Source: a virus
DNA length: 64,000 nucleotides
Reading direction: 5' to 3' (one strand)
IMG/VR virus record: IMGVR_UViG_3300047494_000263
Span: 11,426-75,425 of that record
Positions 12,044 through 62,797 of this stretch are shown piece by piece. Made by a program: the position numbers and the translations under genes. The first letter of the stretch is position 1, and each line of letters starts with the position of its first letter. Below the pieces are notes generated by a model that made no database searches, was not told the origin of the DNA, and saw only the letters and a list, made by a program, of their open reading frames with translations.

Positions 12044-12103
12044 TGTTTTTCTGACTGAAAAGACATAGCCCATCGTTGATCACGCATCAATAGCGAGCCA
12101 AGA

Positions 12104-12559
12104 ATGACGCCATCCCCGCGATCGCCCGAAGACAAGCTGACACACGTGTTTCGTGGAATGTTCGAACCCATCGACAGTAAGGATTTACTGAGCGCGAACG
12201 CCGTCTTTTGGGTTTATGGGAAGGCAGCGCAACCGTATTTCATCTTGACCCTCGCGCTGATATGGCGGGACCACCCCCTTGATATACCCCTCGAGGGGGC
12301 TTTCAAGCTTGACATTGATCTAGCAGAACCGTCTCTCTGGGCGGAGCACAAAACACGCGGCACGTTCGGCGGCGATCGAGACGTTTCTGTCGTTTTCAAA
12401 AACTTCAACCCCAGCGTGGATGGGAAGTCCGGCGCCATTCGGTTCAGCTACATCGAGCACACGGATCCCGATCGGTGGCTCATGGAGGGAACTGTCGAGT
12501 ATCTGGTTCCAAGCGGAGCGCTACCCGAAAGCGCCGTCATCTCTCCAAACGTTTCATAA
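12104..12559 (+). CDS. hypothetical protein
   Basis: 151 aa ORF filling the gap. Confidence 0.55.
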   Translation: MTPSPRSPEDKLTHVFRGMFEPIDSKDLLSANAVFWVYGKAAQPYFILTLALIWRDHPLDIPLEGAFKLDIDLAEPSLWAEHKTRGTFGGDRDVSVVFKNFNPSVDGKSGAIRFSYIEHTDPDRWLMEGTVEYLVPSGALPESAVISPNVS

Positions 12560-12880
12560 CTGGTTGGATAGCCAATTTAGGGGCAGCTAGGCAGACGCCC
12601 ATGCTCCTCCAAAAGCAACGGCGAGTGATGGGACATTTTTGACCACGAGTCGTTCTTTTGCGGCCCGCTCAGGCGCCATAAGAGACTCGTGAATGACAGT
12701 GTCGTGACGGAAAGGCGGAGAAATCTACTCCGATCGGCACGCCGGACAAAGGCGCCATCCAAAATCAAGCGTTACACACAGGCAGATGTTGTGGAGATTT
12801 ATTGCTGTTTCTCACACCAGATGGCATAGTGCCTTGCCTGTTGCGCACTCTTGCCTTCCGGCACTCCGCTGAGGAACGGT

Positions 12881-15802
12881 ATGAAATTACTCGCTGCAAG
12901 CGTCCTTCTCTCAATTCTTCTATCGGTCGATAGCCGAGCCGCCACCACGGTTGAATTCTGCAAACCATACACCGCGCTCTCCCAGTTGCCCGTCGACCTG
13001 AAGCAACCTTACATTCAATACACGCTTGGGGTGACCGACTTGGCCGGAGGCAAAAAAGCGATAAGCATCACCGGCGACGAGATTCACGTGACGCGCGAGA
13101 GTCTGGGTGTGCTGGTGCGCGCGGCCGCGGCCGTCGACCGAAGCATCGATTCAATCCGACTAGATGCTCGCGTGGTGAAATTCTCCGGGCAGGTTCCACT
13201 GAGCGGCGGACGGATCGATGTGTTTGCGAAAGACATCGAATTCGAAGACGGAAGTTCGATCACTCTCCTTCCAGCTTCTAACTCGCGGATTACCCTGGCG
13301 GCGCAGAATATTTCGCTCTCGGATACAGGGTTTCATCACTTCGACGTCCGCGCGCGGGAATTGACCGGCCCACGAGACACCTTCTCGGACATCGACACCA
13401 TTCTCGATGTCAAGGCGAGCCACTTGTATGTGGGCGGCTCTGAGATCGCGCATGCAAACGCTAGTGGAGTTCTCGCTCAAAGATTCTCAACCTACCCGAT
13501 CGATGACTTCACAGCGAAAATAACCGCTGATGTAGGAGACCCCGTGAGTGCGGGATGGGTTGACGCTGAAAGGCAAGCGAAGGTCGAGTGGCCAAGATAC
13601 TCGGTTGCCGTTCTACGATCCGTATTTAGGATAAGCCCGTTCGATGACTGTGCACGGGAGGATATCAAGGATGCCGCAACAAACAATCTTCCGACTTTGA
13701 AATTGCTCGCCAACGGCGAAGCGGTTTTTGAAGCCCAGACAATTATTGATGCGGTGGATCGTGGAGTAGATCTGAATGGGAACGGCCCAGCCTATGTATC
13801 AAGTCGACCTCTGGCCGACGTTTTGCTCGGAATTAGATCTTTTGAGCCAGGTGGCTCAGAGCAAAAGACACTTAAGTTCTACATAGACAGCCTGAATGAT
13901 TCTATCAGTAACACCCCTATCTCTGAAGATGCGCAGAACGCGGAGGTGGCGAAACTCGCCGAGACTATCAGGCAAGAAAAGATCGACTATGCAAATACAA
14001 ACAACGAATTGATCGAGCTGCAGTCGGAGATCTTTAATACGACCCAGCTCCTGACAACCCAGCAGAACCAGTATCACGATCGTGAAACCTCGCTGAAGAA
14101 CTCGGCGGCCGAACTCAAGAAAGGTAACGCCGATCGAGCCGAGCTCCTAGCGGGACTTTCCACAGCAGCAGCGATCGCATCGACTGCCTACACCGGGAGT
14201 CCTCAAACCGGATCGGTGGTAGGCGGTGTAATTCTAGCCGTCGGGGAGGCTGGCCAGGGGAGACCCGTTTTCAGTTCTCTATCTGCCGGCTACCAATTTT
14301 CTGTTGCGATAAAAGGGCCTTTGACGTCTATCCAGAAGACGATCACAGACTTGTACAACTCCCGCGGAAATTACGGCATGTTTATCGATTCTCTCAGCGT
14401 GCAAAACATAACGATCAAGAATTCGATCACCGTTCCCGTCACGAACCCGGCGCCGGGCCAGCCTGCAACGAAGACGATCACACGCGATGAGGCGCTTGCC
14501 GACCTTGCTGCCAAAGGGGAGGCTCTCAAAACAGGGATTCAGGGGATTGAAGGGGTTTACAACAACTTCAAGGAATCGGCTTCGCCAGTCTCTGACGACA
14601 TAGAAGATGATGGCTCACTCGAGAATCTCGCGGAGCATCTGACTACCACATTGGAAAGTGCAAAGAACCAGGCTATCAAGCTCGACGCTGTTCAGAGACA
14701 AGTTCAGCAGCAATCTGTATTGCTCGTTCAGAGCGCAGAACAACTGGCTAGAGTAACGAATCTACCGATCATTGACGAGGCCAATCGGAGAACCTTTCAA
14801 CAACTCTCCATCGATGGATTCAGAGACGAAGTCTCCAAATTTGCTGAGCTGACAGACGAGATTCGGAGAGTTAGCCTCGTCGAGTATCGGGCGCAGTTGC
14901 CGGTGGATGTTGCTCAAATTGAAAGCGTTTTGGTCTCCGAACAATTGGATCAAGGATTCGACCAGAAAGCTAGTTTGAACTCGGCAGATATCGCCACGAA
15001 ATACCTCAATGCGTTAAAAGCGCAGAAGGATCTGATCAGTCTTTTGGCATCTGCTCTTGACAAGGCTTCTGATCGACAATTCTACGCTTACGTAAAAATG
15101 CGAGGAAGCGCGCCAGTGCAGGTGATTGCGACAGAGCAGATCAATACATCACAGCACGCTCCCCAGGATAAGAAGGAATTCATTGCGCGATTAAACAAGC
15201 TCGTCCAAGAAGAATTCAATGCACGTTCCAACCTTCCGAAACTGGATGATTTATACAAACAGCGCATCGCAATTCCCTTTGATCTTGTTGGCAAGCTGGA
15301 CCAAAGATTTCCCACAAGGCTCCTCCAGGCCGTGGTTGTTGGCGTACTTCCAAAATTCAATCTGAAGGGCAGTGATCTCGCATTCCGGATAGAAGTGGAA
15401 AGGGTGGGAAATTTGCGTAAGTCCTCCGGCCCAATACCTAACGGCCCTGCACGGACAAACCTCTCACAGAAAGTCTGCGCAAAGAAAAACTTGCCTCAGC
15501 CGTCGCTTGATTGCTTCTCAGTGGATCTTCGCGAAAAAGACACTCCAGAAGAATTTCAAAATTCCCCATTCGATTACTCCATCGGAACGGTACTGGGTGG
15601 ACACGCATTCGTTCCAACCCCAATAGAGAGCTACTGGTACCTCCACCCCGGGGACACCGCCCCTGGAACCCGAACCACAACGCTCACATACGCGCCCGCT
15701 GAAGCGCGAATGTACTTGGGAGTGCGCCTTGATCCACGTGCTGCGTGGGTGACCGCGCCGAAATTTACGGAAATGACCGTGACTGTGGAGGCATTTCAAT
15801 GA
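12881..15802 (+). CDS. large secreted protein, putative alpha-helical pore-forming-toxin-like
   Basis: Signal peptide MKLLAASVLLSILLSVDSRA after GAGGA; beta-rich N-terminus; long coiled coils flanking a Gly/Ala hydrophobic hairpin. Confidence 0.55.
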   Translation: MKLLAASVLLSILLSVDSRAATTVEFCKPYTALSQLPVDLKQPYIQYTLGVTDLAGGKKAISITGDEIHVTRESLGVLVRAAAAVDRSIDSIRLDARVVKFSGQVPLSGGRIDVFAKDIEFEDGSSITLLPASNSRITLAAQNISLSDTGFHHFDVRARELTGPRDTFSDIDTILDVKASHLYVGGSEIAHANASGVLAQRFSTYPIDDFTAKITADVGDPVSAGWVDAERQAKVEWPRYSVAVLRSVFRISPFDDCAREDIKDAATNNLPTLKLLANGEAVFEAQTIIDAVDRGVDLNGNGPAYVSSRPLADVLLGIRSFEPGGSEQKTLKFYIDSLNDSISNTPISEDAQNAEVAKLAETIRQEKIDYANTNNELIELQSEIFNTTQLLTTQQNQYHDRETSLKNSAAELKKGNADRAELLAGLSTAAAIASTAYTGSPQTGSVVGGVILAVGEAGQGRPVFSSLSAGYQFSVAIKGPLTSIQKTITDLYNSRGNYGMFIDSLSVQNITIKNSITVPVTNPAPGQPATKTITRDEALADLAAKGEALKTGIQGIEGVYNNFKESASPVSDDIEDDGSLENLAEHLTTTLESAKNQAIKLDAVQRQVQQQSVLLVQSAEQLARVTNLPIIDEANRRTFQQLSIDGFRDEVSKFAELTDEIRRVSLVEYRAQLPVDVAQIESVLVSEQLDQGFDQKASLNSADIATKYLNALKAQKDLISLLASALDKASDRQFYAYVKMRGSAPVQVIATEQINTSQHAPQDKKEFIARLNKLVQEEFNARSNLPKLDDLYKQRIAIPFDLVGKLDQRFPTRLLQAVVVGVLPKFNLKGSDLAFRIEVERVGNLRKSSGPIPNGPARTNLSQKVCAKKNLPQPSLDCFSVDLREKDTPEEFQNSPFDYSIGTVLGGHAFVPTPIESYWYLHPGDTAPGTRTTTLTYAPAEARMYLGVRLDPRAAWVTAPKFTEMTVTVEAFQ

Positions 15803-62093: not shown

Positions 62094-62716
62094 ATCGCGC
62101 CCCAAATAGCGCTGAGGACACCGGTGACCATGTGCCACCATGTCAGTGCTTGTTGCGTCAGGTGATCCGAAAGCAGATCTCGGGAATCATCGCTGGCGAT
62201 CGGGTAGAGCAGGACGACATCGCTGAGGCACTCGCGTGGATCGATTCCGGCGTAGAACTTTGCAGAATCGAAAAGCCGGCGACGCCGCCGATGCACTTGG
62301 TGTCCTATTGCGTGGTGCTGAACCAAGACCGTGTTCTCCTGGTCGATCACAAGAAGGCCGGACTTTGGCTGCCGACCGGTGGCCATGTCGACCAGGGCGA
62401 GTATCCACGACACGCTGCGGAGCGTGAGTTGCTTGAAGAACTCGGGGTCGTCTCCGAGGTGCCCTTCGGTGCGCCGTTCATGATTACTTGTCAAACGACC
62501 GTGGGCCTGACCGCAGGTCACAGGGATGTCAGCCTCTGGTACCTCGCGCGCGTGGCTGAGTCAACACCACTGCGTTGGGATAGGGACGAATTCAACGATA
62601 TTCGCTGGTTTTCGATGGATCAGGTGCCCCTTGAACGCGCTGATCCCTGTTTTGAACGATTCGCGCGAAAGTTGGCGGAGCATTATCCGTTAGCGCGAAC
62701 GCTCCAGCGGGTTTGA
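62090..62716 (+). CDS. NUDIX hydrolase
   Basis: HLVSY..LLVDHKKAGLWLPTGGHVDQGE..AERELLEELG. Confidence 0.9.
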   Translation: MNRAPNSAEDTGDHVPPCQCLLRQVIRKQISGIIAGDRVEQDDIAEALAWIDSGVELCRIEKPATPPMHLVSYCVVLNQDRVLLVDHKKAGLWLPTGGHVDQGEYPRHAAERELLEELGVVSEVPFGAPFMITCQTTVGLTAGHRDVSLWYLARVAESTPLRWDRDEFNDIRWFSMDQVPLERADPCFERFARKLAEHYPLARTLQRV

Positions 62717-62761
62717 ATATCCCTAAGTAGCAAACCTCGTGACTTTTCGGCCACCAACAGT

Positions 62762-62797
62762 GGGTGGAAAGAACCTCTCTCGCTCGCTATGCTTTTT
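62762..62797 (+). promoter_or_regulatory. recurrent promoter motif copy
   Basis: GGGTGGA-N18-CTATGCTTTTT. Confidence 0.6.

What the first reader, a model, noticed from the sequence alone, without database searches (positions are those of the whole stretch)
12058..62797. Element-wide promoter motif GGGTGGA-N17/18-CTAT(G/C)(T/C)T defines a putative coordinated regulon
Seen: exact GGGTGGA with an 18-nt spacer then CTAT at 24287, 56702, 61166, 62762 (+) and 49775 (-). Variants with 17-18 nt spacing at 32224, 35485, 38368, 48309, 49794, 55752 (+) and 46653, 24258, 12093 (-). Nearly all lie 25-60 nt before a start codon (the 49775 copy is about 225 nt upstream), most are followed by a T-run, and two occur as back-to-back pairs. 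Downstream genes include the DpdA-like operon, the MTase-SNF2 operon, DUF5131 and many small unknowns. Known: the geometry equals sigma70 (-35 TGGANN, 16-17 bp, -10 TATGTT), and conjugative plasmids use conserved upstream elements such as IncN CUP repeats to co-express establishment and anti-defence genes. Inference: a dedicated early/establishment regulon read by an element-specific activator or sigma factor, making the downstream small ORFs candidate anti-defence proteins.
Basis: partly seen in the sequence, partly recalled or inferred. Interest (0 to 1): 0.8.

Follow-up and report, generated by a model that had tools for sequence, protein, structure and literature searches.

The report
Stereotyped promoter family in mobile element
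A 75-kb virus- or plasmid-like element from a moss metagenome carries about 11 to 16 copies of one unusual two-box promoter in front of DNA-metabolism, DNA-modification and unknown genes; this points to co-regulation, an ordinary design, by a reader protein that was not identified.

Summary
GGGTGGA-N18-CTAT occurs 5 times against 0.05 expected. A two-block matrix finds 16-17 sites in the 75,425-bp contig against 1 in reversed sequence; 11 sites survive leave-one-out scoring cleanly. Fifteen of 16 are intergenic, and all point at a nearby gene. Box spacing is that of sigma-70-family promoters (17-18 bp). T-12, A-11 and T-7 are essentially invariant. A pyrimidine-rich tract of 6 nt ends in a purine exactly 7 nt after the -10 hexamer in 15 of 16 sites. 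The sites are poor matches to the housekeeping consensus (6-9 of 12), while near-consensus promoters exist elsewhere in the element. The composite is at chance level in 301 Burkholderiales genomes, the probable host order. They are not repeats or terminators.

I read them as one co-regulated promoter class with a shared specificity determinant. Whether that is a host RpoS-like sigma, an element-encoded sigma or an activator is open. The only candidate found is an orphan 113-aa protein with sigma region 4 alone. The "conjugative establishment / anti-defence" reading is not shown. No transfer genes were seen, small downstream ORFs match nothing, and named targets are nrdB, a dNMP-kinase-like gene, DpdA, MTase-SNF2, DUF5131 and NUDIX. 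No close relative and no RNA data were available. This is a new member of a known kind.

The parts
9205..9241 (-). Promoter copy (CTTGAAC-N-AGATATCTTGTTTT). It lies 34 nt before the operon 8045-9181 (dNMP-kinase-like, PF21448), 7551-8048 and 7085-7564.
   Evidence: Matrix score 20.7; leave-one-out rank 16; Pfam.
12057..12093 (-). Sub-threshold; not counted as a member.
   Evidence: Sequence; absent from the 45 best matrix hits.
24222..24258 (-). Promoter copy (CGCCTGACG...GGCTATGCTTTTTT). It is the left half of a divergent pair and lies 52 nt before the 77-aa ORF 23947-24180.
   Evidence: Score 27.5; leave-one-out rank 9.
24287..24323 (+). Promoter copy with the exact motif. It is the right half of the divergent pair and lies 42 nt before the 233-aa gene 24355-25056 (phrog_3963, unknown function).
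32224..32259 (+). Promoter copy (GCGTGGA...GGCTATCTTTTTCT). It lies 48 nt before the 1051-aa gene 32297-35452, a family present on 1249 PLSDB plasmids.
   Evidence: Score 32.4; leave-one-out rank 1; homologues.
35485..35521 (+). Promoter copy before 35545-35772 (75 aa), 35817-37988 (723 aa) and 38028-38339 (103 aa). All three are of unknown function.
   Evidence: Score 30.3; no Pfam or PHROG hit.
38368..38403 (+). Promoter copy before the acidic 65-aa ORF 38422-38619, DpdA 38616-39608 and 39627-39950.
   Evidence: Score 30.9; PF23859 DpdA, 1.6e-15.
46618..46653 (-). Promoter copy (GGGTGAC...GCCTATGCTTTTTT) before a small minus-strand ORF inside 46371-46643.
   Evidence: Score 28.7; start-codon inspection.
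48309..48344 (+). Marginal copy (CTGGAAA-N-AATATACTTTTGG) 24 nt before the 105-aa ORF 48358-48675. It is the only copy that also passes the plain sigma-70 consensus scan.
   Evidence: Score 17.9; leave-one-out rank 46; consensus scan.
49739..49775 (-). Promoter copy with the exact motif, half of the second divergent pair. It lies about 224 nt before DUF5131 (GTG 49525 to 48743).
   Evidence: PF07505, 7.7e-72.
49794..49830 (+). Promoter copy (CCCTGGAAG...GGCTATCTTGCTCC). It lies 37 nt before ATG 49857 of the ORF 49857-50363.
   Evidence: Score 20.1; start codons.
55753..55788 (+). Marginal copy (CCTGACG...GCCTATGTTGCCCT) 32 nt before the 283-aa gene 55810-56661.
   Evidence: Score 15.6; leave-one-out rank 36.
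56702..56738 (+). Promoter copy with the exact motif. It lies 65 nt before GTG 56793. The operon is 56793-57665, MTase-SNF2 57638-60913 and 60910-61158.
   Evidence: SNF2-related domain and Helicase_C.
61166..61202 (+). Best-scoring copy, with the exact motif. It precedes 61226-61582, 61586-61852, 61821-62093 and NUDIX 62090-62716.
   Evidence: Score 32.9; NUDIX, 2.2e-18.
62762..62798 (+). Promoter copy with the exact motif. It precedes 62840-63211, DUF5983 63208-63513 and DUF3850/ASCH 63503-64000 (runs off the contig).

Best explanation
These are working promoters of one class.

Anatomy. The -35 box is cGGGTGGA(a/c)g, with core TG(G/A)A. A non-conserved spacer gives 17-18 bp hexamer spacing. 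The -10 box is gGC-TAT(G/C)(C/T)T. A T/C-rich discriminator of 6 nt follows, and the predicted transcription start is the purine 7 nt after the hexamer. Leaders are mostly 20-60 nt.

Targets. At least 11 and probably about 16 copies lie in the 75-kb contig. They drive about 29 of 88 genes. Named targets are nrdB, a dNMP-kinase-like operon, DpdA, MTase-SNF2, DUF5131 and NUDIX/ASCH genes. The rest are unknown genes.

Shown: the motif, its excess over chance, its placement, and its geometry.

Inferred, step 1: bacterial RNA polymerase with a sigma-70-family sigma reads the sites. Bases that depart from the housekeeping consensus are themselves conserved (GGG before the -35 box, G where TTGACA has A, no A at -9/-8, C at -13, the T-tract). 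Near-consensus promoters coexist in the same element. The class therefore shares a specificity determinant of its own and forms a co-regulated set.

My split:
- about 45% an alternative sigma, either a host RpoS-like group-2/3 sigma or one encoded elsewhere on the 500-kb contig;
- about 25% housekeeping sigma plus an element factor bound at GGGTGGA;
- about 25% housekeeping sigma alone;
- about 5% not promoters.
For: - Excess: 5 exact composites vs 0.05 expected; 17 matrix hits vs 1 in reversed sequence; 11 sites robust to leave-one-out.
- Placement: 15 of 16 sites are intergenic while only 14% of the contig is intergenic. All are oriented towards a start codon 24-65 nt away, with two longer leaders.
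- Geometry: the distance from the TG of the -35 box to TAT is 22-23 nt, which equals a 17-18 bp spacer.
- Conservation: T-12 in 15/16, A-11 in 16/16, T-7 in 16/16; a purine 7 nt after the hexamer in 15/16; the 6 nt between are T/C-rich.
- Not the housekeeping consensus: each site matches TTGACA/TATAAT in only 6-9 of 12 positions. Only 1 of 9 sites in 44001-64000 passes a 9/12 consensus scan.
- Canonical promoters coexist in the element: 11/12 at L001 4080-4051(-), 10/12 at L001 8786-8813 and 10/12 at window 53143-53170.
- Host order is probably Burkholderiales. There, 12,914 mapped starts in Cupriavidus are dominated by classic TTGACA and TATAAT-type motifs (PMC13492112).
- The composite is at chance in 301 Burkholderiales genomes: 15 hits vs 12 for the reversed control.
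- Spacers and flanks are not conserved, so the copies are not duplicated repeats.
- No hairpin excess: mean z +0.1.
Against: - No transcript data exist; the only run holding this DNA is a DNA metagenome.
- No close relative could be fetched, so there is no phylogenetic footprint.
- The host is inferred, not known, so 'not a host promoter type' rests on a sample of one order and on exact-string counts.
Two members fail leave-one-out scoring and three more are borderline.
- All key housekeeping determinants are retained, so RpoD could read these sites unaided.
- No complete sigma gene is present in the 75 kb.
- Genes with and without the motif do not differ in GC or GC3.
Confidence: 0.6

Rival explanations
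1. These are ordinary housekeeping (RpoD) promoters of moderate strength with no dedicated reader. On this view the stereotypy reflects shared selection for one strength or kinetic type, or local host preferences, and not a regulon.
For: Sigma-70 geometry and the invariant T-12, A-11 and T-7. No complete sigma and no FlhDC-type activator in the 75 kb. Motif-driven genes do not differ in composition from the rest.
Against: Non-consensus positions are conserved instead of drifting: A is never found at -8 and only once at -9, C-13 is in 11/16, and the GGG and T-tract are kept. Near-consensus promoters coexist in the element. The composite is at chance in 301 genomes of the probable host order. 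Mapped Burkholderiaceae promoters are classic (PMC13492112).
Confidence: 0.25
2. The host general-stress sigma (RpoS-type) reads the class. The element would then express its DNA-metabolism and DNA-modification genes under stress or stationary conditions.
For: GC at -14/-13, C or T at -8, T at -7 and -6 and an A/T-rich discriminator. These match the RpoS features summarised in PMC13492112: an extended -10 ending in GC, a YAaACT-type hexamer and an AT-rich discriminator. CTATACT as the RpoS -10 box is from my own knowledge.
Against: RpoS promoters are described as having a degenerate -35 box, but here the -35 box is the more distinctive half. A at -9 of TATACT is almost never present here (1/16). 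The discriminator is T-only, not a mix of A and T.
Confidence: 0.2
3. An element-encoded protein reads GGGTGGA. The only candidate seen is the orphan 113-aa sigma-region-4-only protein at contig 1175-1516. It could act as an activator or repressor at the -35 position, as a surrogate for sigma region 4, or as half of a two-subunit sigma.
For: Sigma70_r4, 3.6e-9, covering residues 34-80; nothing else is recognisable in the protein. It aligns to the C-terminal region 4 of ECF, SigB/F/G and FliA sigmas. Region 4 is the domain that reads -35 boxes as a monomer, which fits an asymmetric 7-mer (established knowledge). Two-subunit sigmas exist (SigO-RsoA of Bacillus; own knowledge).
Against: No link between this protein and the motif was shown. 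It is an orphan: 1 hit among 5.8 billion word-indexed proteins and 5 weak hits among 1.8 billion by HMMER, so no co-occurrence test is possible. No region-2-like partner was detected in neighbouring ORFs. The -10 half is also atypical, which a -35 binder alone does not explain.
Confidence: 0.1
4. The sites are not promoters but chance similarity, dispersed repeats, or terminators formed by a hairpin plus a T-run.
For: One copy (61178-61192) is also picked up by the simple terminator scan.
Against: 5 copies vs 0.05 expected. No extended similarity between copies. No excess folding energy: mean z +0.1, with only one copy below -2. Strict orientation towards genes.
Confidence: 0.04

Closest known systems
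Temporal promoter classes of large phages (T4 middle promoters with MotA/AsiA; SPO1 gp28 and gp33/34 classes). Own knowledge.
   Same: One short stereotyped two-box motif is repeated before many operons of a mobile genome, including nucleotide-metabolism and DNA-modification genes and many small unknown ORFs. A sigma-70-like -10 box is kept while the -35 region is re-specified.
   Different: No MotA, AsiA or phage sigma homologue was identified. No virion or packaging genes were seen in the 75 kb. The motif sequence is unrelated to the MotA box or the SPO1 consensus. Timing of expression is unknown.
IncN CUP elements bound by the repressor ArdK (Delver and Belogurov 1997, as cited in PMC6289460)
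   Same: A recurrent upstream sequence ties several operons of a mobile element into one regulon, possibly for establishment in a new host.
   Different: CUPs are operator sites (a 13-nt consensus inside longer conserved upstream sequences) for a known repressor, and they control ardB, ardK and repA. Here only the polymerase-contact boxes are conserved; flanks and spacer are not. No ArdK-like gene or transfer gene was seen.
RpoS-type promoters of proteobacteria
   Same: C at -13 (G at -14), C or T at -8, T at -7 and -6, and an A/T-rich discriminator (against the summary in PMC13492112).
   Different: The conserved, distinctive -35 box. G or C instead of A at -9. A purely T-rich discriminator.
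AcaCD / SetCD / BisDC (FlhDC-family) regulons of IncC plasmids, SXT/R391 and ICEclc. Own knowledge.
   Same: An element-wide set of promoters switched on by one element-encoded master activator.
   Different: No FlhC or FlhD domain is present in the 75 kb. Those activator boxes replace the -35 box and are longer and partly palindromic; here a plain -35-like TG(G/A)A is kept.

Membership tests
Sigma-70-family promoter (two-box type) | -35-like and -10-like boxes separated by a 16-18 bp spacer of free sequence | tested here: met
   The distance from TG to TAT is 22-23 nt in all 16 sites, equal to a 17-18 bp spacer. Spacers are not conserved.
Sigma-70-family promoter (two-box type) | -10 hexamer with T-12, A-11 and T-7 | tested here: met
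   15/16, 16/16 and 16/16.
Sigma-70-family promoter (two-box type) | Transcription starts at a purine 6-8 nt after the -10 hexamer | not testable with these tools
   The sequence is compatible, with a purine at +7 in 15/16 sites. No RNA run holds this DNA.
Housekeeping (RpoD) consensus promoter | Good match to TTGACA-N17-TATAAT (at least 9 of 12) | tested here: not met
   15 of 16 sites match in only 6-8 of 12 positions. One of 9 sites passes the consensus scan.
RpoS-type promoter | C at -13, a TAYACT-type hexamer, an A/T-rich discriminator and a degenerate -35 box | tested here: inconclusive
   C-13 in 11/16, C at -8 in 8/16 and a T-rich discriminator are met. A at -9 in 1/16 and the conserved -35 box are not met. 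Criteria are from PMC13492112.
IncN CUP-type conserved upstream repeat | An extended conserved upstream sequence carrying an operator, shared between operons, plus its repressor | tested here: not met
   All-against-all BLAST of intergenic regions gives only 13-15-nt matches confined to the boxes. No ArdK-like gene was recognised among the ORFs scanned.
FlhDC-type master-activator regulon (AcaCD/SetCD/BisDC) | FlhC- and FlhD-like genes on the element | tested here: not met
   No match at E<=1 in the 75 kb. The rest of the 500-kb contig could not be searched.
Single-stranded-DNA (Frpo-type) leading-region promoter | A long imperfect hairpin that forms the promoter in single-stranded DNA | tested here: not met
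   Fold energies of the 40 nt covering both boxes do not differ from shuffles (mean z +0.1).
Intrinsic terminator | A GC-rich hairpin directly followed by a T-run | tested here: not met
   Only 1 of 16 sites has a stem abutting the T-run. No folding excess.

The most novel reading that the evidence does not exclude
The GGGTGGA box is read by the element's own orphan sigma-region-4-only protein (contig 1175-1516). That protein would act as a detachable -35-reading module, either a surrogate for region 4 of the host sigma or half of a split sigma. It would redirect host RNA polymerase to the element's DNA-metabolism and DNA-modification genes.
Probability: 0.1. Interest if true: 0.7.

Novelty: new member of a known kind. 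Interest (0 to 1): 0.35.

Why it matters
Mobile elements made largely of unknown genes are hard to annotate. A robust promoter class splits this one into transcription units and marks about 30 genes as one expression programme. Those genes include DpdA, an MTase-SNF2 fusion, DUF5131 and about 15 orphan ORFs, which gives a rational shortlist for functional screens.

If it is host RpoS, it would tie expression of DNA-modification genes to stress. Neither outcome would overturn current understanding.

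Tried and rejected
- Relatives by DNA. Megablast of 20 kb against PLSDB plasmids and GenBank phages gave no match.
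- Exact 16-base motif in IMG/VR. Seven single hits, consistent with chance.
The Burkholderia and Paraburkholderia contigs holding the 43-45% identical 1051-aa homologues could therefore not be fetched.
- Loci found through that protein (L009-L020), through DpdA (L033) and through NrdA (L034-L113). They share only the query gene, or one more, with the window, and they lack the motif. They are not relatives of the element, so their lack of the motif says little.
- TGGTATACT in three of those loci (L010, L011, L013) recurs as an extended -10 box. I first read this as 'each lineage has its own motif' and dropped it for want of synteny.
- RNA evidence. No RNA holder is listed; the only run holding the DNA is a moss metagenome that may be the source of this DNA.
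- Sigma region 2, FlhC and FlhD: none in the 75 kb.
- Region-4-only protein. The word-indexed search found only itself, and HMMER over 1.8 billion representatives found 5 weak hits. No family or context analysis was possible.
- Small downstream ORFs in Pfam, NCBIfam and PHROGs: nothing.
- Hairpin or terminator reading: rejected.
- Composition of motif-driven genes against the others: no difference.
- tRNA and Rfam scans of the odd 41.6-41.8 kb spacer: nothing.

Full report
**What the record is.** The window is bases 11426-75425 of a single 75,425-bp contig. IMG/VR files it as a provirus with 62% CheckV completeness. Its own proteins are on record on a 500,633-bp contig, so the 75 kb is a piece cut out of something larger. 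The only public run holding the DNA is a moss metagenome.

Recognisable genes are:
- NrdA and NrdB;
- DnaB, a dNMP-kinase-like protein, an AAA ATPase, a DUF2201 metallopeptidase/VWA protein, a GAF-PAS-GGDEF-EAL protein, AbiEii and a HipA-like protein;
- XPF plus two GIY-YIG proteins and an FtsK/HerA-like ATPase;
- two NUDIX proteins, DUF1643, DUF5983, DUF3850/ASCH and a T4 gp30.3-like protein.

I saw no virion, packaging, relaxase or mating-pair genes, and no tRNA. The 1051-aa protein at 32297-35452 has 43-45% identical homologues in Burkholderia and Paraburkholderia. It is found on 1249 PLSDB plasmids, 1083 of them typed conjugative, but on only two phages. Full-length homologues of the GGDEF-EAL protein that carry an organism name are mostly Burkholderiales. 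The host is therefore probably a betaproteobacterium of that order. The element type, whether plasmid-like island or phage-like, stays open.

**The observation.** Neither half is notably enriched alone; the composite is. That equals a 17-18 bp spacer.

I built a two-block matrix from them, iterated it over the whole contig and set the threshold at about one false hit per shuffled contig. It gives 16-17 sites. Three sites are new: window 9215(-), contig 5580(-) before nrdB, and contig 9156(+).

Reversed sequence gives 1 hit against 17. In leave-one-out scoring 11 sites still outrank every non-site position in 150 kb of two-strand sequence. Three more nearly do, and two (48334+, 55778+) are marginal. 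Independently of any seed, CTATGTT, CCTATGT and GGGTGGA are among the 7-mers most enriched in oriented upstream regions.

**Anatomy.** The consensus is cGGGTGGA(a/c)g - 12/13 free bases - gGC TAT (G/C)(C/T) T TTTT y t.
- TG of the -35 box is invariant. T-12, A-11 and T-7 are 15/16, 16/16 and 16/16.
- C at -13 occurs in 11/16. A never occurs at -8 and occurs once at -9.
- The six bases after the hexamer are T/C-rich. The seventh is a purine in 15 of 16 sites (A in 10, G in 5), which is the classic pyrimidine-purine start context.
- Four copies continue with AGAC.
- Fifteen of 16 sites lie in intergenic DNA, which is 14% of the contig.
- Every site points at a gene. The distance from the -10 box to the start codon is 24-65 nt, except DUF5131 at about 224 nt.
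- Two pairs are divergent, with their -35 boxes about 20 bp apart.
- With a simple operon rule the class heads about 29 of 88 called genes.

**What it is not.** The copies share no sequence beyond the boxes, so they are not dispersed repeats or CUP-like long elements. The 40 nt spanning both boxes fold no better than shuffles (mean z +0.1), so they are neither terminators nor hairpin-type single-strand promoters.

**Is it just the host's ordinary promoter?** Each site matches TTGACA/TATAAT in only 6-9 of 12 positions. A plain consensus scan of 44001-64000 picks up one of the nine copies there, and finds fewer promoter-like sites than in shuffles (4 vs 7.6). Yet near-consensus promoters exist in the same element:
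- TTGACA-18-TATATT at L001 4080-4051(-);
- 10/12 at L001 8786-8813;
- 10/12 at window 53143-53170.

In Cupriavidus metallidurans, a member of the probable host order, 12,914 mapped starts are dominated by classic TTGACA and TATAAT-type motifs (PMC13492112). The composite GGGTGGA-N17/18-CTATSYT occurs 15 times in 301 genomes of the order of a Burkholderiales genome (G001). The reversed control pattern occurs 12 times, so this is chance level. The element has five in 75 kb.

**Who reads it?** The two-box, free-spacer design with intact T-12, A-11 and T-7 indicates a sigma-70-family holoenzyme. Conservation of bases that depart from the housekeeping consensus argues for a shared extra determinant. 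The -10 half resembles RpoS-type promoters: GC at -14/-13, C or T at -8, T at -7 and -6, and an A/T-rich discriminator (criteria as summarised in PMC13492112). The distinctive, conserved -35 box does not fit the degenerate -35 of RpoS promoters.

The 75 kb holds no Sigma70_r2 domain and no FlhC or FlhD. It does hold one 113-aa protein (contig 1175-1516) that is sigma region 4 and nothing else. Region 4 is the module that reads -35 boxes as a monomer, so this is a natural candidate for an asymmetric 7-mer. However, it is an orphan, nothing links it to the motif, and no region-2-like partner was detected nearby. I keep it as the novel case at about 10%.

**Comparative evidence.** Loci reached through the 1051-aa protein, DpdA and NrdA share only one or two genes with the window and lack the motif. 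They are not relatives of the element and give no footprint.

A co-regulated set is the best reading. 'Conjugative establishment regulon' is not supported by gene content, and CUP elements work differently: they are ArdK operators (PMC6289460). The named targets are nucleotide supply and DNA modification (nrdB, a dNMP-kinase-like gene, DpdA, MTase-SNF2, DUF5131, NUDIX, ASCH). That would fit protecting the element's DNA from restriction, but it is inference. The small ORFs match nothing.

**Verdict.** This is a real, well-defined, element-specific promoter class.

Noticed in passing
L001:1175-1516 (+), contig coordinates, about 10 kb before the window: A 113-aa protein consisting of sigma-70 region 4 only (Pfam 3.6e-9). 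It is an orphan in 5.8 billion word-indexed proteins and has 5 weak HMMER hits in 1.8 billion. It is preceded by a 70-aa Cys-rich ORF (940-1152) with CxxCxGxG-like motifs.
   Followed up: partly
window 28271-28280 and 42607-42620: A perfect palindrome, AAGATATCTT (ATAAGATATCTTAT at 42607), sits in two AT-rich intergenic regions. Each half contains TATCTT, the -10 hexamer of the promoter class. These could be bidirectional promoters or an operator.
   Followed up: partly
window 53143-53170 (+) and L001 8633-8655 (+): A shared 20-mer, GTGATTAAGATAT(C/A)TGATAC, lies inside a near-consensus sigma-70 promoter (TTGATA-16-TATGAT). It precedes the T4 gp30.3-like gene in the window and occurs again between nrdA and the next gene. 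Each copy is followed by a CCTAAG...CTTAGG inverted repeat. This may be a second, canonical promoter class.
   Followed up: partly
window 28287-28301 and 46727-46741: An identical 15-mer, TATCGAAATGCTTAG, occurs in two intergenic regions, next to the AAGATATCTT palindrome and a related GAATATCTTC.
   Followed up: no
window 41660-41810: A 450-bp gene-free spacer holds two tRNA-T-arm-like strings (GGTTCGACTCC at 41704, GGTTCGAATCC at 41781) and a 12-nt direct repeat, CGACCGACTTTA (41664, 41793). ARAGORN and Rfam find nothing. These could be tRNA or attachment-site remnants.
   Followed up: partly
window 32297-35452: The 1051-aa protein of unknown function belongs to a family present on 1249 PLSDB plasmids (mostly conjugative, in Klebsiella, Enterobacter, Providencia and others). 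It is also on a 308-kb Tunturiibacter jumbo phage. No Pfam or PHROG family matches it.
   Followed up: partly
L001 8644-8670 (-): A class-like site, CGGGTTGAAGA-N13-AGATATCTTAATC (score 9.3), lies just inside the called 5' end of nrdA. The true nrdA start is probably further downstream, and nrdA may also belong to the class.
   Followed up: no
L010 7590, 9887, 9947; L011 3716, 5746, 5807; L013 234, 9837: Unrelated metagenome loci that hold the 1051-aa homologue carry a recurring extended -10 box, TGGTATACT, including directly upstream of that gene.
   Followed up: partly
L001 4080-4051 (-): A near-perfect sigma-70 promoter (TTGACA-18-TATATT, 11/12) lies upstream of the leader and Pth2-like operon described in earlier notes on this contig.
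   Followed up: no
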